Shown here in pieces: positions 1,032 through 40,745 of a stretch of 64,000 nucleotides of DNA. The stretch is from the human T2T-CHM13v2.0 reference genome, Homo sapiens: assembly GCF_009914755.1 (NCBI RefSeq), contig NC_060926.1, one strand, 5' to 3'. Position 1 is the stretch's first letter. Each line of letters begins with the position of its first letter. Under the pieces are notes generated by a model. That model was given only the letters and a program-made list of their open reading frames with translations. It was not told where the DNA came from and did no database searches. The position numbers and the translations under genes were made by a program.

Positions 1032-3657
1032 TTCATTTGAGTTTGCTGCTGGACACCCTCATTGTGTTTATTGGCCTGTTTCTCTGTTAATGCCTATCAC
1101 GAATGGCTTGGGTAACTAAAGCTTTGGGAAGTAATGTAAAGTGGAAGAGTGTGATGGCTCCACCGACTTTGTATGTGTAGGAACTGCTTTGGGAATGCGG
1201 GGCATTTGATTGTCCCACGGGATTTTTAGTATTGTGTTGTGATCCTATATGGAAAACAAAAATAGGACATGGTCTGTGTTTTTATTTAAAGGGTGCAACG
1301 GACCTTTTTACATGAATCAATGAAACTGCAGGACCTAGCGTCTGTTTCATGCTACAGTGAGGATTTCTTGATGGAGAGAGCATTCCAAATCCTTTCCAGC
1401 AATATTGAATATTATGTTATGATACTGTTAAGCCTAGTCACCCTGCTGTGCCGTACAACACCAGAGTAACTGCGTCTCATCTGAACATCCCTTTGCAGCC
1501 ATTTCCAATCCTCCCCCCAGCCTCTGGTACCCACTGTTGACATTGCTACTCTATGAGATTCACTTTGTTAGATTCCACGTGCATGAGATTTTGCAGTATT
1601 TGTGTTTGTCTTCCTCTGCCTGGTTCATGTTTTTTAACTTAATGTCTTCCAGGTTTTTCCATCTTGCTGGTAGTGAACTGATGTCCGGAAGTTTGATGGC
1701 TGAAGAGTATACCGTTGTGCATATATCCTTCAATTCCTGCATTTTTTAATCTGTAGAAAGACAAGTAGGTTGATTCCCCATCTTAGTTATTGTCCAGAGT
1801 ACTTCATGAAACATGAGAGGGAGATACCTCCTTAAGGTAGGTTTGGTTGGCTTTGCAGGTATACCCAGTGTTGGGATGGCTAGAGGAACTGGTGGTTGTG
1901 TTAATTGTTTCAGAAACCTCCAGCTGTCTCCCAGCAGGTATACGAATTTGCATTCAAACCAGTAGTGTGTAATAGTTCCTCTGTCTGCAAATCTACACTG
2001 CCCTTATCTTCCAAAGTTTTATTGCTGTTTCTGGTCATACTCGTTCTCTGGGAAGAAACTCTTCTGATGTGGACAAACTTTTCTATTACCTGAGAGTCTG
2101 TTTCAGGTTTTTTCAGAAATGGCTATGCCAGTCCTTTGGGCATTTTTAGCATGTGTTTTGGTTTTTGTATTTTTGTCCACTTAGGACCATTAGTTTCTTG
2201 AGTATGTTAGATAAGAAGCCCTTCCAGATTGACAGTTTTTCATAATTTTCTTCTAGTCTGCAAGATGCCTTTTATTTGGGTTCAGTATTTTCTGTCCTGT
2301 GTTGAAGCTGCGTGAAGCTCTGAAGTTGTCCTTAGTCTCACATGGTCACATTAGCTTTTGTTAGTGGTGATTTCTGTGTCCCTTTGAGAAGAAAAGTGAG
2401 ATGGCGAAGCCATTGTATGGTCTATGGGTATTTGGTTCCTATGTCTTCCTTTTCTGTTTGTGGCTTAGGTTCACAGGTTCAAGTTTACCCACAGTAGACA
2501 CACACCCTACGTGTTTTCCTTGGAGATTTTGGTTTCAGGATTGAACTTAGGTGTTCAGTAGATTTTGTGTCGCTTTTTGTGTCTTGGGTAAAGGAAAGGT
2601 TCGGTCCTTTGCACGTGACCCCTCAGTTTCCTCAACCATTGTGCCTTTGGTGTGCTTTTGGAGGAACAACAAGAATCCCATGGGTTCAGTGTTTATAATT
2701 GTGGGTTGATTATTTGGCTCCTTCGTTGTGTCCATTCGGTTGTCTTTCTGTGTTCATGCCACTAATGGATGGATTGGGTCACTGTAGGCTTTTTGTTTTG
2801 TTTTGTGTGTTTTCTTCCTTTTTTCTATTTTTATTTCCAAAGCTGGGTTTTCTAAAATGATAGCTACTTTTATTGTGATCGAGGGGTACGCCTGCAGGTT
2901 CATTTCACTACATGGCTATACAGTAGAATTTTGATGCTTGGGGTCCTAACGTACCTGTCACCCAGGCGGTGAACACAGCACCAGTTGGGTCTTTCTTCCT
3001 CCAAGGCTCCCTGTCTCCCTTTTTTTTCTGTCTGGAAGTACCCAGCGTCTCTTGATTTCATCTTTATGTTGATGTGTATTGGGTGTTGCGCTTCCACTTA
3101 TAAATGAGAACCTGCAGTGTTTGGTCTTCTGTTCTTGCCTCAGTTGCTTAGCAGAGTGGCCTCCAGTTCCACCCATGTTCCTACCGAGGGCATGATTTTG
3201 TTTCTGTGTTTGATTTTCCTTAGTGGCTTTTTAGCATTCTGTGATGTATAGGAACCACATTTTTAAAAATCCAGTTTTCTGTTCGTGGGCATCTAGATCA
3301 GTTCCACATCTTTATTCCTGTCAGTAACACTCCCGTGGACGTGTGAGTGTCATGTGTCTTTTTGATAGACGCATGTGTTTTTCCCTGGGGTAGATGCATG
3401 GGGTAGGATTGCTGGGTCAAAGCATAGCTCTGCCTTCCATCCTTTTTTTTTTCCAGAAATCTTCAGACTGGTTTCCACAGTTTAGGATCTAGTTTGCATT
3501 ACCTCCAAGAGAATAGCCATGTTTGCTTTTCTCTGCTGCCACACTGTAGCATGTTATGTTTTGACTTGGGACAAATGGCCACTCTGACCAGCATGTGATG
3601 GTACTGGTACCTCATCTCTGATGATTAGTGATGTTGAGCGTTTCCCATGCCTGTTGG
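1032..3657 (-). repeat. Degenerate antisense L1 mosaic unit, paralogous to 17985-20760
   Basis: Collinear by eye with 17985-20760, e.g. GGGTAACTAAAGCTTTGGGAAG and GAAGTTGTCCTTAGTCTCACATGGTCACATTAGC occur in both. ORF-track peptides 1537/18584 and 2958/20061 are homologous. Confidence 0.85.
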
Positions 3658-6594: not shown

Positions 6595-6943
<349 letters not shown>

Positions 6944-9499: not shown

Positions 9500-11822
9500 T
9501 TTATTGTATTTTTTTATTTCCATAGGTTTTTGGGGAACAGGTGGTGTTTGATTATATGAGTAAGTTCTTTAGAGGTGGTTAGTGAGATTTTGGTGCACCC
9601 AACACCTGAGCAGAATACGCTGTATCCAGTTTGTAGTCTTTTATTCCTCACCCGCTTCCCACCCTTTCCCCCAAGTCCCCAAAGCCCATTGTAGTATTTT
9701 AATGCCTTTGCATCCTCATAGCTTAGCTCCCACTTGCGGGTGAGAGCATACTGTGTTTGGTTTTCCATTCTTAAGTTACTTAGAATAGTAGTCTCTGATG
9801 TCATCTTGCTGTGAATGCCATTATTTTTTTCCTTTTTATGGCTGAATAGTATTCCATGGTGGGTGGGTGGGGGTGTGTGTGTGTATACTATATCTATAAT
9901 ATATATCATAATATCTTAATCTCATTGATTGATGGGCATTTGGCTGGTTAAATATTTTTGCAGTTGTGAATTGTGCTGCTGTAAACGTGTGTACAAGTAT
10001 CTTTTTCATATAATGACTTCTTTTCCTCTGGTAGATAACTCAGTAATGGAATTGCTGGATTAAATGGTAGTTCTACTCCTAGTTCTTTAAGAAATTTCCA
10101 CGCAGTTTACCGTAGTGGTTGTACTAGTTTACATTTCCACCAGCGGTGTAAAAGTGTTATTTTTTCACCATATCCCCACCCACATTTATTATTTTTTGAT
10201 GTTTTGATTATGGCCATTCTTGCCAGGAGTAAGGTGGCATGGCATTGTGGTTTTGATTTGCATTTCCCTGATCATTAGTGATGATGAGCATTTTTTCATG
10301 TTTGTTGGCCATTTTTATATCTTCTTTTGAGAATTGTCTATTTAAGTCCTTATCCCATTATTTGAAGGGATTGGTTTTTTTTCTGCTGAGTTCTTTGTAG
10401 ATTCTGGATATTAGTCCTTTGTCAGATGTATAGATTGTGAAGATTTTCTCCCATTCTGTGGGTTGTCTGTTTACTCTGCTAATTGTTTCTTTTGCTGTGC
10501 AGAAACTTTTTGGTTTAATTAAGTCTCACCTGTTTATCTTCATTTTGTTGTCACACTTGCTTTTGGCTTCTTGGTCATGAAGTCTCTGCCTAAGCCAATG
10601 TGTAGAAGGGGTTTTCCAATGTTACCTTGTAGAATTTTTATGGTTTCAGGTCTCAGATTTAAGTTGACTTTTGTATAAGGTAAGAGATGGGGATCCAGTT
10701 TCATTTCTTGGGATGTAGCTTGCCAATTATCCAAGCACCATATGTTGAGTAGATTGTCCTTTCCCGACTTTATGTTTTTGTTTGCTTTGTCAAAGATCAG
10801 TTGACTGTAAGTATTTGGGTTTATTTCTGGGTTCTCTATTCTGTTTCATTGGTCTATGTGCCTATTTTTATACCAGTATCATGCTGTTTTGCTGACTATG
10901 GCCTTGTAGTATAGATTGAAGCCAGGTAATGTAATGCCTCCAGATTTGTTCTTTCCGCTTAGTCTTGCTTTGGCTATGCGGGCTCTTTTTTGGTTCCATA
11001 TGAATTTTCAAATTATCTTTTTTAGTTCTGTGAAGGATGATGGTGATACTTTGATGGAAATTGCTTTGAATTTATAAATTGCTTTTGGTGTTATGGTCAT
11101 TTTTGCAATATTGATTTTACCCATCCATGAGCATGAGAGGTGTTTCCATTTACGTCATCTGTGATTTCTTTCAGCAGTGTTTTGTAGTTTTCCTTGTAGA
11201 GGTCTTTTACTTCCTTGTTAGGTATATTCCAAAGTATTTTATTTTATTTTTTTGCAGCTATTGTAAAAGGGGTTGAATTCTTGATCTGATTCTCAGCTTG
11301 CACATTATTGGTGTATAGCAGATCTTTTGATTTGGGTACATTAATTTTGTGTCCTGAATTTTTGCTGAAATTATTTATCAGTTTTAGGAGCTTTTTGGAG
11401 GAGTCTTTAGGGTTTTCTAGGTATACAATCCATATCATCAGCAAACAGAGACAATTTGACTTCCTCTTTACCGATCTGGATGCCCTTTATTTCTTTCTCT
11501 CATTCGATTGCTCTGGCTGGGATTGTCAGTGCTATGTTGAATAGAAGTGGTGAGAGTGGGCATCCTTGTATTTATTGTTGCAGTTCTCAGAGGAAATGCT
11601 TCTAACTTTTCCCCATTTAGTATTATGTTGGCTGTGGGCTTGTCATAGGTGGTTTTTATTACCTTAAGGTATGTCCCTTCTATGCCTGTTTTGCTGAGGG
11701 TTTTAATTATAAACGGATGCTGGATTTTGTCAAATGCCTTTTCTGTGTCTGTTGAGATGCTTATGTGACTTTGCTTTTAATTCTGTTTATGTGATTATCA
11801 CATTTATTGACTTGCCTGTGTT
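9500..11822 (-). mobile_element. L1PB/L1MA-age LINE-1, 3' part, antisense
   Basis: 3' end CCCCAAAAACCTATGGAAATAAAA on the minus strand. ORF2-like peptides at 10540-10734 and 11244-11444. Ends abruptly at ~11822. Confidence 0.9.
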
Positions 11823-11997
11823 AGACCGGAAGAGCTGGGGTGTTCTCAGGAGCCACCGTGTGCCGCGGCAGCTTCGGGATAACTTGAGGCTGCATCCTGG
11901 GGAAGAAACACCTCCTGTCCGTGGCGCTGATGGCTGAGGACAGAGCTTCAGTGTGGCTTCTCTGCGACTGGCTTCTTCGGGGAGTTCTTCCTTCATA
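11823..11997 (+). promoter_or_regulatory. Candidate upstream promoter / non-coding first exon
   Basis: ETS core ACCGGAAG at 11825-11832, CpG-enriched non-repeat sequence, and donor ATA|GTGAGT at 11997/11998. Confidence 0.55.
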
Positions 11998-12320
11998 GTG
12001 AGTACAGAAGCTTTCGTTTTCTGGAATGTTCTACGTAGTCCTGCTGGGTTCTCCTTTTCTTTTTTCTCTTTCCATCTTAGTATGAATTTTACAGTAGTAC
12101 TCATTCCCTGAGGGCTTTTGAGGTTGGAAAGAGTAGGGGGCTTTAGGGCTGTTTCTGAGGGAGACTCCCCTTGTAGATGGAGAGAGAGGAAAGCTCTGGC
12201 TGTGGGAGGAGGGGGAAGCCCGGCCCAGGTGGGGTTTTGGGGCCAGGCTCCAGTTAGGCTGCCTTGCATCCACGCCTCAGGTGGAAGGAAAGGATCCCAG
12301 CCCCCTCTAGGGTTTGCTGA

Positions 12321-12780
12321 TTTTTTTAATTGCTTTTATTTTTTTGGAGATAGGGTCTGGCCCTGTTGCCCATGCTGGAGTGCAGTGTCAGATCTCAGCT
12401 CACTGCAGCCTCCACTTTCTGGGCTCAAGGGATTCTCCAGCCTCAGCCTCCCCAGTAGCTGGGCCTGTGCCACCATGCCCGCTATTTTTTTTTTTTTTTT
12501 GTATTTTTGGTAGCCACGGGGTTTCACCATGTTGCCCATTTTGAGCTCTCGAACTTCTGAGCTCAAAGCAATCCTCCTGCTTCGGCTTCCCTAAGTGCTG
12601 GGATTACAGGTGTGAACTACTGTTCCCGGTCTGCTGAATTTTGTTTTTCATGTATTTTTGATAGAGACAGGGTTTCACCATGGTGCCCAGGCTGGTCTCA
12701 AACTTCTGAGCTTAAAGCAATCCTCTCGCCTTGGCTTCCCAAAGTGCTGGGATTACAGGCATGAACTACTGCACGTGGTC
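12321..12780 (-). mobile_element. AluJ (antisense) plus a tandem duplicate of its left-arm region
   Basis: 12500-12640 and 12650-12790 share private features (GAACTACTG and the flank CTGAATTTT). Confidence 0.8.
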
Positions 12781-13147
12781 TACTGAATTTTTACATTTGT
12801 TTCCCAGCCGTCGGGACACAGGGGTCACTTTTCTCAACACCCTCCCGCCCCCCACCCCCGCCCCGGCAGCATCTGCCTAATTCTGTCCCTCTAGTCAGGG
12901 CCACCTGACTGGGGGAAGCTCCCTTCCGTGTGGTTTAATGTCTTCTTTGCAGAAATGTGTATTCAGGTTCCCTGCTCGGTTTTGGATGGATCATTTTAGT
13001 ACTGTTAGTGTGTGGCATATTTTCTGTAACAACCCCTTAGCTGATAGGTGATTCCTCAAAACGTTCTCCCAGCCTTTCTCTTTGGGCTCATTGTTTCCTT
13101 TTCCTTGCAAAAACTTCACTTTGAGGTAGCCATGCGTGTTTTTTTAT

Positions 13148-13434
13148 GGCCAAGCATTATGGTTCATGCCTGTAATCCAAGCACTTTGGGAGGCCAAGGT
13201 GGGCAGATCACTTGAGCCAAAGAATTTGAGACCAGCCTAGGCAACATGGCAAAACTTCTTCTCTACAAAAAAATATGAAAAATTAGCCAGGCGTGGTGGT
13301 GTGTGCCTGTAGTTCCAGCTATTCAGGAGGCAGAGGTGGGAGGATCACTTGTGCTGGAGAGGTCAAGGCTGCAGTGAGCCATGATCATGCCACTGCACTC
13401 CAGCCTGAGTGACAGAGTCCCTGTCTCAAAAAAA
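13148..13434 (+). mobile_element. AluJ
   Basis: Diverged Alu dimer with J-type GGATCACTTG...GGTCAAGGCTGCAGTGAGC. Confidence 0.9.
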
Positions 13435-16400
13435 TTTTTTTAATCTCTTTAGTAACATTCATTTCAATAAGAGTGAAATGACATCTGAGTTTGGTTTTGA
13501 AGTACTTTTTTTTGATGAATAGTGATGTTGAGGACCTTTTCTCTGACCTGTTAGTTTTATGTCATCTTTGTAGATATCTCTATTCAAGTTCTGTGCTCAA
13601 TATGAGTTTGGATATGTATTTTATGCTATTTAGTATTGCTTTTTTCTGTGTACATGTTTGGTAACAACAATTTGTCACTTCTACGATTCCCTCAAATTTC
13701 CTAACAATTTTTTTTGAGACAGAGTCTCATTCTCTTACCCAGGCTGGAGCACAGCGGCATATCAGGGATTGTGAGTCCTCCAACTTAGTTTCTATTTCTC
13801 AGGGTTCCTTAGACATTCAGGGCCATTTCCATGTGATCATTAGCATTGTGTATTCACATTTCTTAAATTTCTGTGCATAATAAAGTATATAATTAGAGAG
13901 TCTGCTGGGACTGTTTTTCCTCTGGGACATTTTGGTAAATGTATATTTTTAGTAATGATCAAATCAGGGTACTTGCTCTATCTGTTCTCTCATACAGGTA
14001 TTATTTCTCTGTTGTGATAACATTCAAATTGCTCCCTTCCAGCTTTTTTGAAAAATGTCCTATTTTGTTAACCAGAGTCACCCAGCTGTGGTATAGAACA
14101 CAAGAATGTATTTGTCCCAACTAACTGCAACTTTGTTTCCATAACCAATCCTTCCATCTCCTCCTTCCCCTCTCCTCAGAAAACCACTACTGTACCTTTT
14201 ACTTAATGAAGGCAAAGTTTTTGGATTCCATATAAGTGAGATGAATTTGCTTGTTTTTCTATGCCAGGCTTATTTTATTTAACAATATATTTTTCAGGTT
14301 CATCCATATGGCTCCAGAGGAAAATTATATTATTTTGTTATGGATGAAGAGTATTACGTTGTGCAGATATACTGCAGTGTCTTCATCTCTTGATGTGTGA
14401 TTGGGTAGGTAGGTTGATTCCATATCTCCTATATTGTGAATAGCGCTTCTTAAAGCATGGGAAGGCAGATAGTTTTTTACGGAACCAGCTGCCTTTGCTT
14501 TAAATGCATACCCAGTGTGAGAAACTCCCAAGTTTTTTTCACAGTATATACACCAACTTACATCAACATCAGTAGCATATACGAGTTTCCCTTTCTGTAA
14601 GTCTACACAGGTTGCTGCCATCCAAAATTTTTATTGCTGTTTTGGTAATACTCATTCTCAGTGTAGTTTGATGGCATCTGATATCAGAGTGTGATTCTGA
14701 CTTACATGTTTGGAGTGATTAGTGATGTGGAAAATCTTTAGTTTCACCTGTGAATCAGTTTCATGTCCTTTGCAGAAGTGGTTGCGCAGGTCCGTTGCAT
14801 ATTTTTAGCTTGTGTATTTTTTAAAAATCTTTTCCCCACTTAGTAGCTTTAGTGTTTGAGTATGTTAGATAGCAACCCCTTCCAAAATTACGATTTTCCA
14901 CAGTTTTCCCCCAGTCATCCTGTCCGCCAAGGTAGAATACTTTCTCTTTGGGATCATGTTTTCTCCCCCATGCAGAAGCTCTAAAGCGTTGGTCTCACAG
15001 GTTTATATTTGCTTTTGTCAGCATGGATTTCTGTGTCTCATGAGAGAGACAGAGAGAGAGAAAAAAAGAGATGGCAAAGTCATTGTATTTTCTATGGGTA
15101 TTTTCACCCTAAGCGAGAACATGTGGTATTTGGTTTTCTGTTCTTTCCTTAGTTTGCTTAGCATAGTGGCCTGCAGTTTCATCCTTCTTGCTGCTGAGAG
15201 CACGAATTTTTTTTAAGCTGTGTAGGATTTTGCGGTATCTATGTACAACACTTTAAAACATCTAATCAACTGTTAAGGGGGGACATAGGTCGATTTTATT
15301 TTATTTTTTCATGTGAATAGCACTTCCAAGAACACATCCATGCCTGTGTCATTTTGAAAGAAGGATTTATGATTTATTTTCCTTTGTGTAGATACCCAGT
15401 TATGCGATTGCTCATTTGGATGGTATTTCTAAGTTCTTTGAGGAACTTCCAAGCTACTTCTTATAGTGGGAGACTAGTTTTTATTCCTACCAAGAGTGTA
15501 GCAGTGTTTGCTTTCCTCTGCTGCCTTGCCACCATGTAAATGCTTGGACTTAGGACAAATGGCCATTCTGACCGACTTGAGATGGTATCTCAGTGTGCGT
15601 GTGAGTTGCATTTCTCTGATGATGAGTGATGTTGATGTTTTTTTCTTGTCTATTGGTCACTTGTACGTCTTTTTTTTTACAAGTATGTCTCCATGTCTTT
15701 TTGCCCATTGTTTGATTATTTGTTTTTCTGCCTCTTGATTTTTTTAAGGTCATGTTAGAGTCTGGCTATTAGACCTTGGTCAGAAGCGTAGTTTGGGAAC
15801 ATTTTCTCCCATCCTGTAGGCTATGTTTTTACTGTGCTGGTGATTTATTTTGCTATCTGGCAGTGTTTCAGTTTCTTAGGCCCAACTTGTCCATTTTGGT
15901 TTTTCTTGCTGTTGTTTTTAGGGACCAAGTCATCTAAATTCTTTACCAAAGCCTGTGTTGAGAAAGGTATTTCCTAGTTTTTCTTGTAGGACTTGTATAG
16001 TTTGCGGTCTTCTGCTGAAATCTTTCATTCACCTTGAGTTAGTTTTTGCATCTTGTGAGAAGTGAGGCTCCAGTGTTGTTCATCTGCAAGTGGCTAGACA
16101 CTATCCCAGTGCCTTTCATCGCACAGTGAGCCCTTTCCACGTCTGAATTTTGGTGTTTCAAAGGTCAGATGGTTGCAGGTATGTGGGTTGCTTCTGGGTT
16201 TCCTATTCTGTCTAGGTGGAGGTGGGTCTGTAGCTTTTCTGTGAAATTTGAAATTGGAGATCGTGGTCCATCTGACATCGTCTGGATCTCCCAGCATGGC
16301 TTTGGAGTTTCAGAGCATTTCGTGGTCCCATGGGAATTTTAGCATTCATTGTTTCTTCACATTGCTTTCAAAAAACAAAATCGACCCATCCTAAAGGTGT

Positions 16401-18060
16401 ACAAGTAGAGGGTAGAGTGGAATATTTGGATCCATGCATGCATCAGATAGTGATGAAATCAGGGTATATAGTGTCATTTTTTGCCTTGTAGAGTGTTCCT
16501 GTCTTTGAGTTGAGGAGAGCCAGAACTCTTCTTTCTGGCTGCCTTGAAAACTATCCTCTGGTAAAGTTTTCTCTAGTCACCCTGCTGAGGAATAGAACAG
16601 CAGGTTTCATTCCTCTTACGCAGCATGTCACTTTGTACCTGTTTCCTATCCCCACCCGTGCCCAGCCTTCTGTTCCAACCCTGGCAAGCACTGTGGTGCT
16701 TTGTAGGTCTATGTGAGATTAAAGGGTCTTAGATTCCCCATGAGTGAGGTAATGTGAGGTTTGTCTTTCTCTGCTTAGTATTTCATTTACCATAATGTGT
16801 GTTTCATTACCTAGTGTGTTTCATTTACCAGGTTCCACCATGTTGCCGCAGATGACATGATTTCAGTACCTGTGTCTGGCTGAAAAGTGTTTGTTTGTGA
16901 ATGGATATTGTGGTTTCTGGATCTCATCCTCTGTGGGTGGACAGGTAGGTTGATTCCTTATCCTGGCTATTGCGACTGGTTCCACAGGCAGCATGGGAAG
17001 GCAGATGTGTCTTCTGTGTACTGATGACGTATGCTACCAGTGCACACCCAGTGGTAGCGCGGCTCAGTGAAATGGTCGTTGTATTTTTAGTTTTTAGAGG
17101 AACCTCCAGGTGGCCTCTGTAGTGTGCGCACTAATTTACCTTGTCAACAGTTGTGGACAAGAGAGCTCTCCTCTCTGGAAATTCACAGCAACATTTGTGG
17201 TTTCCCTTCTTTTAAGATATATGAAGTTCTTTGTAATACTCTTTCCTTTGAGAGGGACACGATATCTGAGTCTTGTTCTGATTTTCATTTTTCTTATGAT
17301 TAGTGATATTAACTACTAGGTGTTAAGTACATTTGTTTTCAGTTTTAGGTGTTATTTGCAGAAAAGACTCTTTGGTTTCTTTGCCCAATTTTGGTTTGCT
17401 AATTACCTTCTCTTTTCTGCTAGTTAGTAGTGTTAGTTACTTACACCTTTTCTAAAAAAAATCTCCTTAGCTGTGTTTTCCCCTATACCTTTCTTATCAT
17501 CCGTTGGATGTTTGTTTCTTTTCATTCATTGTTTTCATTCTTTCTTTCCCCCAAGCCATATAGTCTGATGAGTCTGATGCAGATTCAGGGGTGTGCAGTG
17601 TTGTGGTTTTCCACTACATTGGTTACTGATGAAATAAAGGACATTCACTAGCATACCAATCTATTGTGAGTTTTGCTTGTTTGTTGTTTGTATTTTCTTT
17701 CCCCCATATTGTTTTCATTTTCCTTTTTGCAAATTGTAAGCATAGATCCAGGTTGGCCCAGGTATCCACACACCATATACTTTCTTCTCAGAGAGTGATA
17801 GTTTCAAGTTTTGGGTATAGGTCTTTCATTCATGTTGAATAGATGATTGTGAATTTCACACAATAAGGACCCTATGTTGTTATTTTGCCTAGGGATATCC
17901 AGTTCTCAGAACGCTGTATTGGACAGACTCTCCCTTCTTGTGGTGACGTTTGTGGTTCTTTCTAAACATGTGCTTAGGCTATACCAATTTGAACTTACTC
18001 CTAGGCACCTTCATTGTGTCCCCTGGTCTGTGTTTCTCTGCTAAGGCCTATCACAAATCA

Positions 18061-18214
18061 TCTGGGTAACTAAAGCTTTGGGAAGTAATTTAAAGTGGAA
18101 GCATGTGATGGCTCCACCGAGTTTGTGTGTGTAGGAATCTGGGTAACTAAAGCTTTGGGAAGTAGGTTAAAGTGGAAGAGTGTGATGGCTCCACCGACTT
18201 TGTGTGTGTAGGAA
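18061..18214 (+). repeat. 77-bp tandem duplication (2 copies)
   Basis: TCTGGGTAACTAAAGC...GTAGGAA at 18061-18137 and 18138-18214. The paralogous unit at ~1108-1183 has a single copy. Confidence 0.9.
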
Positions 18215-18699
18215 CTGCTTTGGGAGTGCACGGCACTTCATTGTCCCACAGGACTTTCAGAAATATGTTGTGATCCTATTTGAAAACAAAAATTTCACAT
18301 GGTCTATGCTTTTACTTTAAGGGCGCAAGGGACCATTTGACATATGGATCAGTGCTGTTGTGATCAAATTACAGGACCTCGTGTCTCTGTTTCAGGCTAT
18401 AGTGAGGATTTCTTGGTGGAGAGAGTATCCCGATCACCCCTTCCCGCTATATTGAATATCATGCTAGGAGACTGTTAAGCCTAGTCACCCTGCTAAGCTG
18501 TAGAACACCAGAATTCTTGCCATTCATCTGAGCGTCACTTTGTAGCTGTTTCCAAGCCTCCCCTCAGCCTCTGGTACCCACTATTGACGTTGCTCCTTTG
18601 TGAGATGCATTTCATTAGGTTCCATGCGCGTGAGATCGTGCTGTGTTTGTGTTTGTCTTCCTCTGCCTGGCTCATTTCCTTTGACTTAATGTCCTTCAG

Positions 18700-18811
18700 C
18701 TTTCTCCACCTTGCTGGAAGTGACCTGCTGTCCAGAAGTTTGATGGCTGAGGAGTATACCATCGTGCATGCATCTTTCATTTCCTGCATTTCTTCCTCCC
18801 TGGATGGACAG
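18700..18811 (+). CDS. Putative L1-derived alternative coding exon (ATG 18768; MHLSFPAFLPPWMDR) able to splice in frame to POTE exon 1
   Basis: Acceptor TCCTTCAG| at 18699 and donor CAG|GTAGGT at 18811/18812. The phase-2 end matches the internal acceptors at 28482 and 28593. Confidence 0.55.
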
Positions 18812-21800
18812 GTAGGTTACTTCCATACCCTGGTTATTGTCCGGAGTACTTCATCAAACACGGGAAGGCAAATATCTCCTTAAGTTACAAGGTTCCTTGG
18901 CTTTGCTGGTATACCCAATGTTGGGATGGCTACGGGAACTGGTAGTTGTATTGTTGTTTCAGAAACCTCCTGCTGTCTCTCCCAGTGGGTATACAAATTT
19001 GCATTCCTACCAATAGTGTGTGAGAGTTTCTCTGTCTGCAAATCTACACTGCCCTTATCTTCAAAAGGTTTTATTGCTGTTCCTGGTCATACTCGTTCTC
19101 TGGGGAGTTTGGCAGTATCTGAGTGTGGTTGGGATTTGCATTTAGGGGATGATTACTGATGTGGAGGAACTTCTATTACCCGCGAGTCTGTTGCAGGTTT
19201 TTTCAGAAATGCCTATGCCAGTCTTTTGGGCAATTTTAGCATGTGTATTGGTTTTTGTGTTTTTGTCCACTTGGGACCATTAGTTTCTTGAATATATCAG
19301 ATAAGAAGCCCTTCCAGATCCACAGTTTTCCATAATTTTCTCCCAGTCTGTGGGATGTCTTCTGTTGGGTTCACTGTTTTCTCTCCAGTGTTGAAGCTAT
19401 GTGAAGCTCTGAAGTTGTCCTTAGTCTCACATGGTCACATTAGCTTTTGTTAGCGGTGATTTCTGTGTCCCTTTGAGAAGAAAAGCAAGATGGCGAAGCC
19501 ATTGTATGGTCTATGGGTATTTGATTCCTATGTGTTTTCTGTTTGTGGCTTAGGTGCACAGGTTCAAGTTTTCCCACACTAGACATGCACCCTATGTGTT
19601 TTCCTTGGAGGTTTTGGTTTCACAATTGCCCTTTAGTGTTCAGTGGATTTTGTGTCGCTTTTTGTGTCTTGTGTAAGGGAAGGGTTTATTTCAGTCCTTT
19701 GCATGTGACCCCCCAGTTTCTTCAACCATTGTGCCTTTGGTGTGCTTTTGGGGGAAAAGCAAGAATCCTATGGATTCAGTGTTTATAATTGTGGGCTGAT
19801 TATTTGGCTCCTTCGTTGTGTCCATTTGGTTATCTTTCTGTGTTCATGCCACTAATGGATGGATTGGGCCACTGTAGGCTTTTTCTTTCGTTTTGTGTGT
19901 TTTTTTGTATTTTCTTCCTTTTTTTCTATTTCTATTTCCAAAACTGGGTTTTCTAAAATGATAGCTACTTTTATTGTGATCGAGGGGTGGACGCCTGCAG
20001 GTTCATTTCACTACATGGCTATACAGCAGACTTTGTATGCTTGAGGTCCTAGCGTACCCATCACCCAGGCGGTGAACACAGCACCAGTTGGATCATTCTT
20101 CCTCCAAGGCTTCCTGTCTCCCTCCTTTTTCTGTCTGGTAGTACCCAGCATCTGTTGATTTCATCTTTACGTTCGTATGTATTCGGTGTTGAGTTTCTGC
20201 CTGTAAGTGAAAACCTGCGGTGTTTGGTCTTCTGCTCTTGCCTGAGTTCGCTTAGCAGAGTGGCCTGCAGTTCTGTCTGTGTTGATGCTGTGGGCATGAT
20301 TTTGTTTCTGTGTTTGATTTTCCTTGGTGGCTTCTTAGTATTCTGTGGTGTATAGGTATCACATTTAAAAACATCTCATTTTCTGTTGTTGGGCATCTAG
20401 GTCAGGTCCACGTCTTTATTCCTGTGAGTAGCACTCCCGTGAACATGCAAATGTCTGTGTCTTTTTGATAGACACATGTATTTTTCCCTTGGGTGGATAC
20501 ACAGGGTTGGATTGCTGGGTCGAAGGGTATCTCTGCTTCCTTTCCCTCTTTGTTGTTGTTGTTGAGAAATCTTGAAACTGCTCTCCACAGTTTGAGACCT
20601 AGTTTGCATTACCCCAAGAGTGTAGCTGTGTTTGCTTTTATCTACTGCTACACAAATATGTTTTGTGTTTGGACAAATGGCCATTCTGACTGGTGTGTGA
20701 TGGCACTGGTACCTCATCTCTGATGATTAGGGATGTTGAGCATTTTCTCCTGTCTGTTGGTCTTTTTTAAGTCTTGTTTTGACTAGTGTGTTTGTGTCAT
20801 TTGCCCATTTTTTACTTGTGTTATTTTTCTGCTTCTTGATTTAGGTAAGGTCCTCTAGATTCTGGCTTTAGAACTTGGTCAGATGCTTGGTTTGGGAACA
20901 TTTTCTCCCATCATGTAGGCTGTGTGTTTACTGTGTTGGCAATTGCTTTGCTGTCCAGCAGGTCTGTAGTTTCTTCGGCCAGACTTGTACTTTTTGTTTT
21001 TTCTTGCATTTCTTTTGGGTACTAAATTGTCTAAGTGGTTTGCAAAAGCCTATGTTGAGAAAGGTGTTTGATAGGTTGTCTGTTAGGACTTTTATATTTG
21101 AAGTCTTCTATTTCAATCTTTGGTTGATCTTGAGTTAATTTTCCATATGATGAGAAGCAGGGCTGCAGTGTTAATTCTCCTGCACATGGCTAGTCATGTA
21201 TCTGAGCGCCATTCGTTGCATAGTGAGCCTTTTCTTTATTTCTTATTTCTGTGGTTTTGTCAAAGGTCAGATGGTTGTAGTTCTGCCAGGCTACTTCTGC
21301 ATTTTCTAACTTGTCTAGGTGAAAGCTAGGTCATTTTTTTCTGTTATGATCTATTTTGATTTCTTGGGTTCAAGAACTGATAAATAAATTTTAGAAACTG
21401 AAGAACCCACTTACTTTCTCAAGGTTAGAAACCATCACCATCACCGTATTCTGTGATGTTATGGGCTTTATTGAGTTACATCTTTGCCCTTTTCCTTCAA
21501 GTCTCTCCTCTGGATTTATTTTGTGAAATTAGATTCTGAATCCCATTTTGTTGCATAAACTGTGCTTGAGCAAAAAAAAGTTTTTCTTTTTTTTTCTAAA
21601 AACATCCTTAGTATACATGGGGTGAAGAACAACAAACCTGTCTCCTCTTTCCACTAGTCACACCATTACACTCCTTTCCAGCCTCTTTGCTGCTACATGT
21701 GGCCATTCAAATGAGCCCTGGCTAAGTACATGTGGATAGAAGTTAATGTTCGCTTCTTGCAAGCCTGGCCCGTGATTCTGTGTTGTGATTTAGAACATAA

Positions 21801-23233
21801 AGAAGAAGTGAGACTTGCTGAATGAGACTCTTGAACGCTTCCTCTGACAAGCTCCAAGGCACACTGGTTGTCTTGCAGTGCTTTGGACAGCTACTCGTTT
21901 GTTGGACAATAATTTCCCAACATGGGGACAACCCAGAGCATTTTCCACTTCCATATTCTGCTTCAGTTGCTCATGGTTTTGATCGAAGCTAGACAGTGAC
22001 TGAACCAGGAGGCTCAGACCCCAGGCCAGCGTGGAGTCCTGTGGTTGAAGACAGGCTGGACCATCAGAGGAAGAAAACAAGTAGCCCTTTTTTCTGGATT
22101 TTCACCTTCTCTGTTTTCAGGAAACCTGAAGCCAATTATGTTATGCAGGCATGACTGAAAAGAGATTATTTTGAGTTGTTTTGGTTGCACCAAGAAATGT
22201 GCCAATGTGACAGCCAAAAAAGCAGAAAGACCAAGGCATTGAGAGTGGGAGAGCCACTGATGATGCTGGGTCTGGTAGGCTTTTCGAGATCTCTCCCAGC
22301 CCCAAAACAGCCAAGCAACTCTGTCCTGGGTTGTGAGTGGGCTCAGCCCCTGTGCACACCCATGCTTGGATTCTGGCACACATGGCACCCACAGGAGGCA
22401 GTTCCCCCTTCAGGAGACTGGTTGGCAGGACCCTGTCTCCACACACAAAGACAGCAGGCAGAACCCACATGTCCTCTAGTTTTCCCAGTGTCACTCGCCC
22501 ATGGGGGTTCACGATGAGACCCCACGGGTCCAACCTGCAGGCAGAGTTGCCACCCCAGCCTGAGGCAAAGTGGACCTTTTTCTGCCAGAGGGGTCTGCTT
22601 TCCCATTGGCCAAAATGGCCTCAAATGACAGGGACAGAACAAGGCACAAGTGTACCCATTAGAGTGTCTGAGCCCGCCTGGTGTCTGCTTCCACACATCT
22701 CCTGGGAGGTCCCAGCAGGCACCCAGGCCTGGGCCACAGCTCACCCCACATTCAGAGGTGGGTAGCACAGCTGCCCTATGCAGGCCTCAGGGAGGAAAGG
22801 GAGAAAGAGATGACAAAAGCAAGACACAAGAAATGCAGCAAAAGCACACAAACACACACACTGACACTCATCTGGGGCAGGCCATCCTCTCACCCATGAC
22901 CAGCAGTGCAGGCAGCTGAGAGTTGGGCAGGAGGTGGTGCCACCATCCCCTGAGTTAGGGCCTGGATCCAAGGAAGAACATAGAGTCCCTAGAGTCAAGC
23001 GCCACTGACCTCAAGACCTGCAGTTTGCAGGGAGGGGATGCTGTGAGAAGAACTGTTCTAGGTCACAGCGAAATATGTCTGACTTCAAGAAAATATTTGA
23101 AACCAAAGTACATTTATTGAAGACTCTCAATGATATAAAAAAGCACAGTTTAGAAAATGTGAAAGCAATCACTGAACATATTCATATATTTTCATCTAAA
23201 TTTAGTTACAGAGTTTTTCTAAAACTGGGATCA

Positions 23234-23520
23234 GGCCAGGTATGGTGGCTCAGGCCTGTAATCCTAGCACTTTGGGAGCCTGAGGCAGGAGGATCGCTTG
23301 AGGCCAAGAGTGGAGACCAGCCTGGGCAACATGGTGAGACCCCTCATCTCTACCAAAAATACAGAACTTGGCCAGTCATGGTAGCACACTCCTGTAGTCC
23401 CAGCTACACAGAAGGCTGAGGTGGGAGAATTGCTTGAGCCTGGGAGGTTGAGGCTGCAGTTAGACAAGACTGCACCACTGCATTCCAGCCTGGGTGACAG
23501 CCTGTCTCAAAAAATAATAA
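23234..23520 (+). mobile_element. AluJ
   Basis: Diverged Alu dimer with A-rich tail. Confidence 0.9.
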
Positions 23521-24249
23521 CAGTAATTCCCGATTTTAATAATTATTCTAGAGTTGTGTAAAAGAATACCCTTAGGAAATGCACACTTTGGGGTAATTAT
23601 GTCTATAGTTTACACTGAAATCATTAAAAAAGGTATGTAAACAGACAAAGCAAATGGGACAAAATGGAGCAAATTTCTACAAATTTTAGAAATTGGTGAG
23701 TCTTGGTTAAGAGAAGGAGGAGGATTCTTGGTACTATTCTTGTGACTTTTGAAATTATATAAAAATTTTAAGTTCCTAAAAACTGGCTGTAGAACTATAC
23801 GCTCAGAGTGAGCATTTATTTTGTAAAATAGTGATTAAGACCAAATCTTTAATCAGTTAAAAATCTGATCAAATAAAAGTAGTAACATATTACGGTATTT
23901 TTGACATCAAATCATTGTAAAGGGGCAATAACTTACAAGTTTGTCTCCAAGCACAGTACATTTTTATGGATTTTTAAAGAATTCACGTTCCCGTAATTCT
24001 TACCTTCCTCCACCTAAAGTGACACAGTTTACCAAATAATTTGGAGTAATGGTTAGATTGGGTTAAATTCTCAAGGCTTCCTCTTTAAAAATCATACATT
24101 TAATTCGGGTAGGGAATGACTTGGCTTCTTTGTTCCTGTGAAAGAAGTATATAAAAATGCCCCCTTAGTAACTATGCAGTCAGCTTACTATCTCAGCAAA
24201 GTCATTGTGAACTTCTTCCCTGTCTCAGGTTGGAAATAGGAACCAATTC

Positions 24250-25670
<1,421 letters not shown>

Positions 25671-27749
25671 GATGGAGAGGTTATGCCCAAGCCTCCAGAG
25701 AGGGGCTCCTTGGATCCGCACAGCACATCCTGCATACCTGCATCCACTGCTGCGCTATGCTCCTCGTATCTGAGCCTTCATGCTCTGGTCCCCGAGGCAG
25801 GTGGTGCTGACTCAGGTGGCCACACTGTGGACCTGGGTGTTGGTGGCCCAGAGGGTGGGTGCTAGAGGCTTCCTGCCCTTCTTGTTCCACTGGGACCAGA
25901 CGGAGCCAGGCAGTGACAGGGTACCACCTTCTTGACTGGATCCTGGAACACAGGAGTGTCACCTGGCCCCTCGTCATCCCAACTTAGCACCCAAAGTACC
26001 CCCGGGCCGGGGCCATGGCTGGGCTGGAACTCAGGATGGTTAGGATGCAGCTCAAGCCTTGTGGCATCTCTGGGTTCTCTGTCCACTGAGGGTGCCCTGG
26101 GATGCAAAGCTGGTGGAAGAGGTTGGCATTTCCCCAGCCTATCCTCACTCATGCCAAGCACCCCAGACTGTCCTTCCTGGTCCATCGCCCTGGTCACATT
26201 CCCCAGGGCAGCTCAGGGCTTTGTTCAGGGATTTCCTGTAGTCAGGTGCCTGATAAGTGTTGAGACGTGCAAGGCCACGTGGGCAGATGGGGAGGTGCTC
26301 TTTGGTGAGCACCCCCAGCAGGGCAGTCCCCCACCCAGGTGTCTGCCTGCTCCTGCTTGTGTTTGACTGTTAACAGCGCTTCATGCCAGGGCCACCAGCT
26401 CCCATCCCTCCTGTCAGGAAGGACACAGACAGCAAGTGCCTGGGGGGTAAGGCATTTGCCAGGTAACACAGGTGGCAAGTGCCAGAGCTGGGATTTGAAC
26501 CCGGATCATGGCACTCTGTGTGGGGCAATGGAAGGTTTGAGAACGCCCATGTAGGAAGGAAGGGCAGCCTGGCCCCACTGAGCCCAGCTGCTCCCTGTGA
26601 CCCTGGAGGAAACTACTCAGCCCCCAGCTGGGGAGAGAGTCCAGGAGGCCAGGCTTCCCCTTGCTTCCTGGCTCAGGGGATCACAGAGGGACAAGGAAAT
26701 TTAGTGTATGTGTCTTCTTTTTGTTTCATTCAAAGTTTAATTTAGTATCAAGCAAGAGAAGCTTTAGTATCAAGCTCCTCTTTTTAGTATCAAGCAAGGT
26801 AGCTTAACCCTTCATAAGACTTCAGTTACAAAATAGTACTTTTTTTTTTTTTGCACTTGTGATTGGCTTCCCCTCTACTTCTTTTGGTAAGAGTAGGTTG
26901 GTGTCCAGGCTCAGAATCCATTTTTCCTCCCACACCAAAGCACCTGTGGTTTGGGTGAAGCAGCCTGGAGCCTGGCTGCATAAAGCTTTGCAGCAGGAGG
27001 GTCCCGGTAGGAGGGTCGAGGTGCTACTTGCCCTGGTCCAGCTCAGAGGCCAGCACCAGGGAGGCTCAGTGTCCTGTTCCCAGGATCTGCACATGGGGTT
27101 GCCTTTCTGCATCTCCCCATCAGAGTGGTAGGTGCTCCTCCAAGCCCCCTCATGCCGGCCTGGACACAGCGGTCTGCACCTTGACCCTATTGCATGCCAG
27201 TGGAGCAGAGCCCCCCAGGCCAGAAGCCCCACAGCTGTTGGCCCTGGCTTGGACACTGGGCAGGGGGCACCAGGGCAGGAGCTGGCTGCAATCCTGTGGC
27301 CCCAAATGCCCCCTCGCTGATGGCCTCATGTTCTGTTCTGGGTGCGGAGCAAAGAGGAGCAGGTGTCGAAGGCACCTCAGGCAGGCGCTGGGCTTAATGG
27401 GCGTCTTGTGCTCCATGATTTTGAGGCCATTTGCAGCCAGCTCCGCCAGCCCGAGCTCCGAGCTGCAGCTGCTGCCATGCACAACAGCACCACCATGAGT
27501 GTCCTGGGGGCTTTCTTCAGGGGAGGCTGTCAGCATCCTCAAGTTCCAGCTGCTTAGCCCCAGTCCTCCTTCAAGAGGCTTTTTTTTTTCACCAGCGGCT
27601 TCTCAATGGCCTGAAAGCTCAGCTGACTCCCACAAAGTTTGCCGGGAACACAGGGCTGTCAGTGACATTCCTGGCGCCAAGACTTAAGCACGTGGGTTGC
27701 ACGCATCGGCCAGTGTCTGTGCCACGTACACTGACGCCCCCTGAGATGT

Positions 27750-27960
27750 GCACGCCGCACGCGCACGTTGCACGCGCGGCAGCGGCTTGGCTGGCTTGTA
27801 ACGGCTTGCACGCGCACGCCGCCCCCGCATAACCGTCAGACTGGCCTGTAACGGCTTGCAGGCGCACGCCGCACGCGCGTAACGGCTTGGCTGCCCTGTA
27901 ACGGCTTGCACGTGCATGCTGCACGCGCGTTAACGGCTTGGCTGGCATGTAGCCGCTTGG
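27750..27960 (+). repeat. ~50-bp tandem repeat (about 3.5-4 copies) carrying YAACNG MYB-type motifs
   Basis: TAACGG at 27799, 27849 and 27899; TAACCG/TAACGG at 27830, 27880 and 27931. Confidence 0.85.
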
Positions 27961-27998
27961 CTTGGCTTTGCATTCTTTGCTTGGCTTGGCGTTGGTCT

Positions 27999-28055
27999 CT
28001 TGGATTGACGCTTCCTCCTTGGATTGACGTTTCCTCCTTGGATTGACGTTTCCTC
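27999..28055 (+). repeat. 19-bp tandem repeat x3 with CRE half-site TGACG
   Basis: CTTGGATTGACG(C/T)TTCCTC at 27999, 28018 and 28037. Confidence 0.9.
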
Positions 28056-28375
28056 TCTCGCGTTCCTTTGCTGGACTTGACCTTTTCTCTGCTGGGTTTG
28101 GCATTCCTTTGGGTGGGCTGGGTGTTTTCTCCGGGGGGGTTGGCCCTTCCTGGGGTGGGCGTGGGGTCGCCCCCAGGGGGCGTGGGCTTTCCCCGGGTGG
28201 GTGTGGGTTTTCCTGGGGTGGGGTGGGCTGTGCTGGGATCCCCTGCTGGGGTTGGCAGGGATTGACTTTTCTCTTCAAACAGATTGGAAACCCGGAGTTA
28301 CCTGCTAGTTGGTGAAACTGGTTGGTAGACGCGATCTGCTGGCTACTACTGGTTTCTCCTGGCTGTTAAAAGCAG

Positions 28376-28785
28376 ATGGTGGCTGAGGTTGATTCAATGC
28401 CGGCTGCCTCTTCTGTGAAGAAGCCATTTGGTCTCAGGAGCAAGATGGGCAAGTGGTGCTGCCACTGCTTTCCCTGCTGCAGGGGGAGCGGCAAGAGCAA
28501 CGTGGGCACTTCTGGAGACCACAACGACTCCTCTGTGAAGACGCTTGGGAGCAAGAGGTGCAAGTGGTGCTGCCACTGCTTCCCCTGCTGCAGGGGGAGC
28601 GGCAAGAGCAACGTGGTCGCTTGGGGAGACTACGATGACAGCGCCTTCATGGATCCCAGGTACCACGTCCATGGAGAAGATCTGGACAAGCTCCACAGAG
28701 CTGCCTGGTGGGGTAAAGTCCCCAGAAAGGATCTCATCGTCATGCTCAGGGACACGGATGTGAACAAGAGGGACAAGCAAAAGAG
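28376..28785 (+). CDS. POTEKP: POTE exon 1: two 37-aa Cys-rich repeats and start of the ankyrin region
   Basis: [35 protein letters not shown]...; donor AG|GTAACC. 111-bp repeats at 28433-28543 and 28544-28654. Confidence 0.95.
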
Positions 28786-29318: not shown

Positions 29319-29649
<331 letters not shown>

Positions 29650-38079: not shown

Positions 38080-38213
38080 AACTGCTCTCATACTTGCTGT
38101 ATGTTGTGGATCAGCAAGTATAGTCAGCCCTCTACTTGAGCAAAATGTTGATGTATCTTCTCAAGATCTGGAAAGACGGCCAGAGAGTATGCTGTTTCTA
38201 GTCATCATCATGT
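38080..38213 (+). CDS. POTEKP: POTE exon 5 with 4-bp frameshifting deletion
   Basis: 134 bp. [15 protein letters not shown]...SQDL then shifts to [14 protein letters not shown]. The family residues [12 protein letters not shown] lie in another frame. Confidence 0.9.
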
Positions 38214-40674: not shown

Positions 40675-40745
40675 AATTTGCCAGTTACTTTCTGACTACA
40701 AAGAAAAACAGATGTTAAAAATCTCTTCTGAAAACAGCAATCCAG
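40675..40745 (+). pseudogene. POTEKP: POTE exon 6 ([23 protein letters not shown] in the ancestral frame)
   Basis: ATAG| acceptor, CAG|GTAAGA donor, 71 bp. Its first two bases complete the premature TAA. Confidence 0.92.

What the first reader, a model, noticed from the sequence alone, without database searches (positions are those of the whole stretch)
11823..28785. Candidate upstream transcription unit that replaces the POTE N-terminus using L1-derived cassette exons
Seen in sequence: an ETS-box, CpG-rich first exon ends at donor ATA|GTGAGT (11997). Each successive antisense-L1 repeat unit then holds a homologous ~110-bp cassette with an AG acceptor and a GTAGGT donor: 14298-14408 (alternative donor 14404), 16832-16944 and 18700-18811. 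The last has an ATG at 18768 encoding MHLSFPAFLPPWMD plus AG (phase 2). Joined to the cryptic acceptor TGCTGCAG| at 28482 in POTE exon 1, it reads in frame ...[11 protein letters not shown]. Through exons 2-5 this gives an 879-nt ORF (292 aa) ending ...[15 protein letters not shown]. The paralogous cassette at 1653-1764 lacks this ATG (CATATATC vs CATGCATC). Inference: a captured promoter plus an exonised L1 array makes a second, chimeric isoform of a supposed pseudogene. From memory and unverified, this peptide resembles an isoform of the breast/prostate tumour antigen B305D.
Basis: partly seen in the sequence, partly recalled or inferred. Interest (0 to 1): 0.85.

Follow-up and report, generated by a model that had tools for sequence, protein, structure and literature searches.

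The report
L1-derived alternative 5' exon of POTEKP
Upstream of the human POTEKP pseudogene lies a stretch of old backwards LINE-1 pieces, one of which can supply a new start codon spliced into POTE exon 1, as an orangutan gene model does, but in human it feeds a broken reading frame.

Summary
Every sequence fact in the finding checks out: coordinates, AG/GT motifs, ATG 18768, the in-frame join to 28483 and the 292-aa ORF. One correction: the stop TAA is completed by the first 2 nt of exon 6.

The cassettes are homologous because they are the same piece of LINE-1, ORF2 codons about 1211-1248 read backwards. Their AG and CAG|GTAGGT motifs also occur in unrelated L1 copies. About 13 equally good decoy donors lie in the same 16 kb, and paralogs show no exon-level constraint. 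On their own the motifs prove nothing.

One independent result supports the core of the model. A protein search found an NCBI orangutan model, "POTE...B-like isoform X2", 894 aa, POTE-actin. The human model aligns to it ungapped over residues 1-278 (90%). No human record and no paper carries this peptide.

The first exon, C1 and C2 remain untested. The first exon is not a CpG island, but its CpGs are unusually preserved against chr22 (8 of 10 vs 40 of 208).

Translation in human is unlikely: 2-10 upstream ATGs, a weak Kozak context and a premature stop. The B305D recollection found no support.

Verdict: partly supported, moderate interest.

The parts
9914..11815 (-). Antisense LINE-1 fragment (ORF2 reverse-transcriptase region) lying just to the left of E1
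   Evidence: Collinear with the masked L1 at 50973-52907. The minus-strand frame 11468-11776 gives a weak RVT_1 match, E 4.8e-4, below Pfam's cut-off.
11823..11997 (+). E1, candidate first exon. GC 0.59, 9 CpG, donor ATA|GTGAGT. Untested as a TSS.
   Evidence: It has 14 genomic copies. All other copies have G at donor position -1. CpGs are kept in both window and chr22 at 8 of 10 sites, against 40 of 208 elsewhere. It is not detectably L1.
11826..11832 (+). ETS-like core CCGGAAG, straddling the point where homology with the older copies stops (11828/11829)
   Evidence: Homology with the chr5 and chr22 copies starts at 11828/11829. The motif is present in the chr14/22 proximal copies and absent from the distal, chr8 and chr13 copies.
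12933..13120 (-). Further antisense L1 ORF2 fragment inside proposed intron 1
   Evidence: nhmmer with an L1 profile built here: E 4.8e-23, profile positions 618-835.
14298..14408 (+). C1, an L1-derived pseudo-exon or cassette (alternative donor at 14404)
   Evidence: Crude matrix scores: acceptor at the 91st percentile, donor at the 98th.
16832..16944 (+). C2, an L1-derived pseudo-exon or cassette
   Evidence: Acceptor at the 97th percentile, donor at the 99.8th.
18700..18811 (+). C3, an L1-derived cassette. It is the antisense of L1 ORF2 codons about 1211-1248 and carries the alternative start.
   Evidence: 8sxt_A residues 1211-1267, E 0.006. The orangutan isoform X2 N-terminus matches its translation.
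18768..18770 (+). ATG of the chimeric ORF (weak context: T at -3, C at +4). Among the nine human copies of C3 found, it is present only here.
   Evidence: The chr22 and chr14 copies read CTTGCG. The distal and chr8 copies read CATATATC.
18743..18745 (+). Upstream out-of-frame ATG inside C3. Its ORF overlaps the chimeric start.
   Evidence: 74-aa ORF when C3 is joined to 28483.
27600..28000 (.). True CpG island next to POTE exon 1 (the presumed canonical promoter), which the proposed intron spans
   Evidence: GC 0.61-0.68, obs/exp 0.86-1.3. Every POTE paralog found shares homology at least from window 27291 up to about 27584-27600, the island's upstream edge.
28376..28785 (+). POTE exon 1 coding part, from the canonical ATG (313-aa ORF)
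   Evidence: 95% identical to ape POTE proteins.
28483..28483 (+). First base after the cryptic acceptor TGCTGCAG| inside exon 1. A second copy is at 28594.
   Evidence: Crude matrix scores 5.9 and 6.1, about the 99.8th percentile of AGs. Same join point as in P0032.
38213..38213 (+). First base of the premature stop TAA, completed by 40675-40676
   Evidence: The alignment to the intact orangutan protein ends at residue 278.
1653..1764 (+). Paralogous cassette of the distal tandem copy; it has no ATG
   Evidence: 1035-3657 matches 17987-20760 at 83%.

Best explanation
Window 11.8-28.3 kb is the old 5' flank of the group-3 POTE genes. It is a mosaic of ancient antisense LINE-1 fragments, partly duplicated in tandem.

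Each fragment that keeps the end of ORF2 carries a ~110-nt pseudo-exon inherited from the L1 consensus. The pseudo-exon has an AG in front and CAG|GTAGGT behind.

The last one, C3 (18700-18811), is a real substrate for exonisation. When transcription comes from upstream, its donor can pair with a strong cryptic acceptor inside POTE exon 1 (28483). Its ATG then replaces the first 35 residues of POTE by 14 L1-derived residues plus the junction codon. An orangutan POTE-actin gene model has exactly this structure.

In human the start codon survives only at POTEKP. There the downstream frame is broken, with a stop at the exon 5/6 junction. Any such RNA is therefore most likely a rare, non-productive 5' variant of a transcribed pseudogene, prone to nonsense-mediated decay.

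Shown: the sequence anatomy, the L1 origin, the paralog history and the orangutan model.
Inferred: that human cells make the junction, and that the orangutan model rests on RNA evidence.
Open: whether E1 is the start site. Its preserved CpGs hint at an unmethylated, occupied element in the germ line.
For: - P0032 (NCBI 'isoform X2', Pongo pygmaeus, 894 aa) matches the human model in 13 of the first 15 residues. The human spliced model aligns to it at 1-278, ungapped, 90.3%.
- It is the only one of 59 retrieved POTE proteins with this start. It is also the only cluster with it among proteins of 30-1565 aa.
- C3 is antisense L1 ORF2 residues 1211-1267.
- The C3 donor and the 28483 acceptor score as high as the annotated POTEKP sites on a crude matrix.
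- The whole flank is collinear at 92-93% with the POTEH/G/M flanks.
- E1 CpGs: 8 of 10 kept against chr22 versus 40 of 208 elsewhere, Fisher p 1e-4. It is the best of 25 windows.
- The premature stop has four exon junctions downstream.
Against: - No human RNA data could be consulted. RefSeq on T2T has no model in 1-28722, and its single POTEKP transcript starts at 28723, downstream of both acceptors.
- The exon-like segments evolve no slower than their surroundings: 35 of 511 mismatches against 687 of 11953, window vs chr22.
- 0 of 6 CpG sites in the cassettes are kept.
- E1 CpGs are not kept against the older distal copy: 2 of 13 vs 17 of 89.
- The window's E1 donor has A at -1 where all other copies have G.
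- POTEE/F/I/J lack the block. Their homology starts at 27133 or 27267.
- I did not see the orangutan record's evidence line. Its RNA support is inferred from NCBI's practice of naming isoforms only from aligned transcripts (recalled).
Confidence: 0.5

Rival explanations
1. Legacy motifs only. The AG...GTAGGT cassettes are what any antisense copy of this L1 subfamily looks like. In human nothing starts at E1 and nothing is spliced. The orangutan model is species-specific or a pipeline artefact.
For: - In other L1 copies the acceptor AG is present in 7 of 7 and a GT at the same place in 5 of 7. Among the 4 copies unrelated to this locus the figures are 4 of 4 and 2 of 4.
- 29 equally good exon-like pairs lie in 12000-28300.
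- There is no exon-level constraint.
- RefSeq has no model here.
- No paper mentions upstream POTE exons.
Against: - The exact junction and start codon recur in an independent orangutan isoform.
- The C3 donor and the 28483 acceptor are intact in human.
- E1 shows CpG preservation.
Confidence: 0.3
2. An ETS-driven promoter at E1 makes E1-C1-C2-C3-POTE mRNAs that are translated from ATG 18768 into a 292-aa chimeric protein, a possible tumour antigen.
For: - The ORF arithmetic holds.
- The same N-terminus is annotated as coding in orangutan.
- E1 has an ETS core and protected CpGs.
Against: - There are 10 upstream ATGs in the full model and 2 in E1-C3. The last ones open ORFs that overlap the start, which itself has T at -3 and C at +4.
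- The stop lies before four exon junctions, so nonsense-mediated decay is expected by the established 50-nt rule.
- No human protein record or paper carries the peptide.
- E1 is not a CpG island, and its donor is weakened in this copy.
Confidence: 0.05
3. C3 is used, but the transcripts start elsewhere: in or near C3, in the distal tandem unit, or by read-through from upstream. E1 is then a separate regulatory element (an enhancer, or a promoter for another or minus-strand RNA).
For: - Only the C3-to-exon-1 part is corroborated.
- The distal copy of the unit lies 22 kb upstream.
- E1 belongs to an old low-copy family whose dispersed members carry a CTCF-like motif about 110 bp upstream of the E1-like part (motif recalled). 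This suggests a regulatory rather than an exonic role.
Against: - E1's GT donor is kept in all 14 copies seen.
- Nothing distinguishes the alternative start sites.
Confidence: 0.15

Closest known systems
NCBI predicted protein 'POTE ankyrin domain family member B-like isoform X2' of Pongo pygmaeus
   Same: It has an N-terminal peptide from the same L1 cassette, joined at the same point of exon 1. 13 of the first 15 residues are identical, and the human model aligns at 1-278, ungapped, 90.3%.
   Different: The orangutan ORF is intact (894 aa, POTE-actin fusion). The human one stops after 292 codons. Two substitutions lie in the L1-derived part. The record's exons and evidence were not visible to me.
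LINE-derived cryptic exons from antisense L1, repressed by MATR3/PTBP1 (Attig et al. 2018, PMC6108849; passages read)
   Same: Antisense L1 supplies ready-made splice sites. Older L1s are more often exonised, and most such exons are seen in testis.
   Different: Those are mostly internal exons in long introns of expressed genes. Here the cassettes lie upstream of the gene and would act as 5' exons, one of them with a start codon.
L1 antisense-promoter (ASP) chimeric transcripts (Criscione et al. 2016, PMC4908685; listing and abstract start only)
   Same: An L1-containing 5' exon spliced to a neighbouring gene.
   Different: ASP transcripts start in the 5'UTR of a young L1. Here the L1 pieces are ORF2 3' parts of old elements, and no L1 5'UTR was found. 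E1 is not detectably L1.
Canonical POTE isoforms (MVAEV... start)
   Same: Same exon 1 from the Cys-rich repeat onward, same ankyrin exons.
   Different: The first 35 residues, including half of the first Cys-rich repeat, are replaced. The canonical or a truncated start occurs in 58 of the 59 proteins retrieved.
B305D / ANKRD30A (NY-BR-1) isoforms
   Same: Recalled only: ANKRD30A belongs to the same ANKRD26-like family as POTE.
   Different: No test was possible. No record with the peptide was found, and the C3 DNA has no match near an ANKRD30 gene among the 40 places scored. Patent sequences may not be in the databases searched.

Membership tests
LINE-1-derived (antisense) exon | The sequence derives from L1 | tested here: met
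   For C3, the minus-strand translation aligns to human ORF2p 1211-1267, E 0.006. There were 160 first-look genomic candidates, with matches on many chromosomes. C1 and C2 are L1-derived by alignment to C3. C1's own frame gave only chance matches.
LINE-1-derived (antisense) exon | The element is antisense to the transcript | tested here: met
   The ORF2p match is on the minus strand, while the cassettes are read on the plus strand.
LINE-1-derived (antisense) exon | Inclusion in a spliced RNA | not testable with these tools
   No human transcript data are available here. There is indirect support for C3 only, from the orangutan isoform X2.
Alternative promoter / first exon (E1) | A mapped transcription start (CAGE, 5' RACE, full-length reads) | not testable with these tools
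   No such data are available. RefSeq lists no gene in 1-28722.
Alternative promoter / first exon (E1) | CpG-island-type composition | tested here: inconclusive
   GC 0.59 and obs/exp 0.60 over 175 bp. Only one 200-bp window (start 11851) passes GC>=0.5 and o/e>=0.6.
Alternative promoter / first exon (E1) | Evolutionary sign of germ-line hypomethylation or constraint | tested here: inconclusive
   CpGs kept against chr22: 8 of 10 vs 40 of 208. Against the distal copy: 2 of 13 vs 17 of 89. Overall E1 mismatch is 11 of 175, no lower than the background.
L1 antisense-promoter chimeric transcript | The transcript starts in an L1 5'UTR | tested here: not met
   E1 has no significant similarity to the L1 segments available (best nhmmer E 2.4 and 4.6). 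Note that those segments cover the ORF2 3' region, not a 5'UTR. The L1 pieces identified are ORF2 parts. No L1 5'UTR reference was available.
POTE protein family | Cys-rich N-terminal repeats plus ankyrin repeats, homologous to POTE proteins | tested here: met
   The exon-1 translation is 95% identical to ape POTE proteins, and the hits carry ankyrin Pfam domains. The spliced model is 90% identical to P0032 over 278 residues.
B305D / ANKRD30A isoform | Sequence identity of the N-terminal peptide to a B305D record | not testable with these tools
   No B305D sequence is on hand. The peptide is absent from papers and from protein clusters other than P0032.

The most novel reading that the evidence does not exclude
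The L1-derived start is a conserved great-ape feature, not noise. An upstream, germ-line-active promoter at E1 drives a POTE-actin isoform whose first Cys-rich repeat is replaced by 14 L1-encoded residues. In human the only copy that keeps this start is POTEKP. Tumours or testis expressing POTEKP would then display a transposon-derived, locus-specific N-terminal peptide (and junction) usable as a marker or antigen, even though the protein is truncated.
Probability: 0.07. Interest if true: 0.6.

Novelty: new member of a known kind. Interest (0 to 1): 0.4.

Why it matters
POTE genes are cancer-testis antigens, and the origin of new protein starts from transposons is an active question.

If human RNAs use this junction, POTEKP (and, without the ATG, POTEG/H/M) have an unannotated upstream transcription unit. 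Expression and antigen studies that count only the annotated exons would miss it.

The evolutionary picture is also of interest. The ancestral POTE flank carried an L1-borne alternative start. It is annotated as coding in orangutan. The expanded human POTE-actin copies (E/F/I/J) lack the block because their homology begins closer to exon 1. The start codon is mutated in G/H/M. It is stranded on a pseudogene in POTEKP.

If no human RNA uses the junction, this is one more set of L1 pseudo-exons, and the finding is ordinary.

Tried and rejected
1. E1 as a relic of alpha-tubulin exon 1. Most copies end ATG|GT and TUBA3D is nearby, but there is no similarity to the TUBA3D 5' end apart from Alus.
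2. E1 as a fourth, diverged copy of the L1 cassette. The position fits (an L1 ORF2 piece follows about 430 nt later), but profile searches both ways are not significant (E 2.4 and >=4.6) and shuffled controls gave nothing.
3. E1 as the terminus of a transposon or an L1 3'UTR. The common boundary at 11828/9 is the window's own breakpoint. The chr5 and chr22 copies run on to the left. Unrelated L1 copies lack E1. The origin of the 14-copy E1 family stays unresolved.
4. Rfam, 1-30000: no family.
5. Pfam on 22 minus-strand frames: only one weak RVT_1 hit, nothing for the cassettes.
6. PDB search with the C1 frame: only chance nanobody matches.
7. Literature.
   - Peptide strings and 'B305D'.
   - POTEKP.
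   - POTE papers, passages read.
   - POTEKP plus 'transposable element': 0 papers.
   - POTE plus LINE-1 or chimeric terms: nothing relevant.
   - One badly chosen query returned noise.
   - The three early POTE papers that may report 5' RACE (PMC139254, PMC1693842, PMC7233169) are not held, so their data could bear on the start site.
10. One genome search was swamped by a young repeat in the query and was repeated without it.
Full report
**What was checked.** The window is T2T chr2:131,998,001-132,062,000.

All coordinates in the finding are right:
- E1 11823-11997 ends ATA|GTGAGT.
- Three cassettes (14298-14408, 16832-16944, 18700-18811) each follow an AG and end before GTAGGT.
- ATG 18768 opens a frame that ends in phase 2.
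- Joined to the base after TGCTGCAG (28483), that frame runs through exons 2-5 for 292 codons.
- The stop TAA is the last base of exon 5 plus the first two of exon 6.
- The canonical ATG at 28376 gives 313 codons with the same stop. The pseudogene's frame is therefore broken whichever start is used.

**What the cassettes are.**
- The four cassettes, including the distal one at 1653-1764, align almost without gaps.
- The minus-strand translation across C3 aligns to residues 1211-1267 of human LINE-1 ORF2p (PDB 8sxt_A, E 0.006).
- The C3 DNA had 160 first-look candidates in the genome. The 40 scored include matches on many chromosomes.
- The left neighbour 9914-11815 is another antisense L1. It is collinear with the masked L1 at about 51-53 kb and gives a weak RVT_1 hit.
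- 12933-13120 is a further ORF2 piece.

So 'antisense-L1 cassettes' is correct.

The splice-like motifs come with the L1:
- In seven other L1 copies the AG is present in 7 of 7, and a GT at the same position in 5 of 7.
- Among the four copies unrelated to this locus the figures are 4 of 4 and 2 of 4.

A crude splice matrix (frequencies recalled, not from a tool) puts the candidate sites in the same percentile range as the annotated POTEKP sites. It also finds 29 equally good exon-like pairs, from about 13 distinct donors, on the + strand of 12000-28300. The motifs alone are therefore weak evidence.

**History of the region.**
- The whole stretch 11000-29500 is collinear at 92-93% with the DNA upstream of the POTE exon-1 copies on chr22 and at two places on chr14 (POTEH/G/M by position).
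- An older tandem copy of the unit lies upstream. E1' is at window -10180 (84%), and 1035-3657 matches 17987-20760 at 83%.
- A block on chr8 (47.509-47.556 Mb) with no POTE exon 1 is collinear from E1 to window about 27584, at about 80%.
- Other POTE genes share only the last 1.1-1.5 kb before the ATG. The four other chr2 copies start at window 27133 or 27267. The chr15, chr18 and chr21 copies start at about 26844. The chr8 POTEA copy starts at 27291.
- The true CpG island (27600-28000, obs/exp 0.9-1.3) lies just downstream of that shared part.

The upstream block is therefore old flanking DNA, kept by POTEKP and POTEG/H/M. The human POTE-actin genes lack it. It is not a recently captured promoter.

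**E1.** E1 has 14 genomic copies:
- the four proximal and four distal POTE-flank copies;
- chr13, and chr8 twice;
- three old dispersed copies on chr5 and chr22 (66-70%), which are collinear with window 11829-15100, L1 parts included.

What it is not:
- It is not TUBA3 exon 1.
- It is not detectably L1.
- It matches no Rfam family.

Its origin is unresolved.

The ETS core CCGGAAG straddles the point where homology with the older copies stops, 13 bases to the right of the flanking L1's end. It is absent from the distal, chr8 and chr13 copies.

E1 is not a formal CpG island (9 CpG, obs/exp 0.60).

One signal speaks for function. Of CpG sites present in the window or in chr22, 8 of 10 in E1 are kept in both, against 40 of 208 elsewhere (Fisher p 1e-4). 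E1 is the best of 25 comparable windows. This is what an unmethylated, occupied element in the germ line would show.

Against it:
- The comparison with the older distal copy shows no excess (2 of 13 vs 17 of 89).
- E1's overall divergence is ordinary (11 of 175).
- This copy's donor has A at -1 where all others have G.

Taken together, the exon-like segments evolve no slower than their surroundings: 35 of 511 mismatches against 687 of 11953. No cassette CpG is kept (0 of 6).

**The decisive result.** The part of exon 1 after the cryptic acceptor was used to search 5.8 billion proteins. This returned 59 primate POTE proteins.
- 58 begin with the canonical MVAEV-type start or are truncated.
It is named by NCBI 'POTE ankyrin domain family member B-like isoform X2 [Pongo pygmaeus]'. 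It is 894 aa, a POTE-actin fusion, and represents a cluster of 8 sequences.
- 13 of its first 15 residues are identical to the human model.
- The human spliced model aligns to it from residue 1 to 278, without a gap, at 90.3%. The cassette, the start codon and the join point are therefore the same.
- Two further searches with its first 40 residues found no other cluster with this start, and no human record. They covered proteins of 491-1565 aa and of 30-490 aa.
- No paper in the library contains the peptide.

NCBI names extra isoforms from aligned transcripts (recalled). The orangutan junction therefore probably rests on RNA, but I could not see the record.

**Human consequences.**
- Among the nine human copies of C3 found, only the window has the ATG. 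The chr22 and chr14 copies read CTTGCG and have a weaker donor, GTAGAT. The chr2 distal and chr8 copies read CATATATC; the distal copies on chr14 and chr22 were not read at this position.
- Translation from 18768 is unlikely. It is the 11th ATG in the full E1-C1-C2-C3 model and the 3rd in E1-C3.
- The preceding ATGs open ORFs that overlap it, and its own context is weak (T at -3, C at +4).
- The stop is followed by four exon junctions, so nonsense-mediated decay is expected (established rule).
- The known POTEKP product in print is the actin-like ORF, not the N-terminal part (PMC13272525, passages).

**Mechanism.** Antisense L1s are a rich source of cryptic exons that MATR3/PTBP1 normally repress. 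Older L1s are used more, and testis shows the most such exons (Attig et al. 2018, PMC6108849, passages). The present case fits that class. The twist is that the cassette sits upstream of the gene and brings a start codon.

**Verdict.**
The L1 origin and the C3-to-exon-1 chimeric start are corroborated. E1 as the start site and the use of C1 and C2 are open. A 'captured promoter', a translated human protein and the B305D likeness are unsupported.
- My odds:
  - about 0.5 that human cells make the C3-exon 1 junction as a rare non-productive variant;
  - about 0.3 that nothing is made;
  - about 0.15 that the start site is elsewhere;
  - about 0.05 for the full translated model.
- Interest is moderate (0.4).

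Noticed in passing
L020 (chr22:21.51 Mb) about 3735-3750, L021 (chr22:25.91 Mb) about 3670-3685, and the chr5 relative: The old dispersed relatives of E1 carry a CTCF-like motif (CCATCAGGGGGCGCC type; consensus recalled) about 110 bp upstream of the E1-like part. The window's copy is cut off before it, at 11828/9.
   Followed up: no
chr8:47,509,050-47,555,948 (L010, L022-L024): A block on the q side of the chr8 centromere is collinear with the whole POTE upstream flank, from E1 to window about 27584, at about 80%. No POTE exon 1 was found there. POTEA lies at chr8:43.57 Mb, on the other side. It may be a remnant of an early POTE locus.
   Followed up: partly
window 27409-28639: The CpG island and the start of exon 1 are far more diverged from the chr14 and chr22 paralogs (78-85%) than the rest of the flank (92-93%). 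The number of Cys-rich repeats in exon 1 differs between paralogs.
   Followed up: no
window 23560-25379: An insertion relative to the chr14 and chr22 flanks (Alu plus L1 pieces). It contains the RefSeq 'enhancer' 24988-25137.
   Followed up: no
window 6060-6298 and 6886-7124: A 239-bp direct repeat at 98.7% identity, much younger than anything around it.
   Followed up: no
window 46113/46114: The annotated POTEKP exon 46043-46113 is followed by GC, not GT (CCAGAG|gcatgg). This is a GC-AG intron or a decayed donor.
   Followed up: no
window 11930 with 18700-18811 and 28376: If E1 were joined to C3, and C3 to the weak AG just before the canonical ATG (28376), one open frame of 373 codons would run from an ATG in E1 into POTE. 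That ATG is ACG in the chr14 and chr22 copies. This is probably coincidence.
   Followed up: partly
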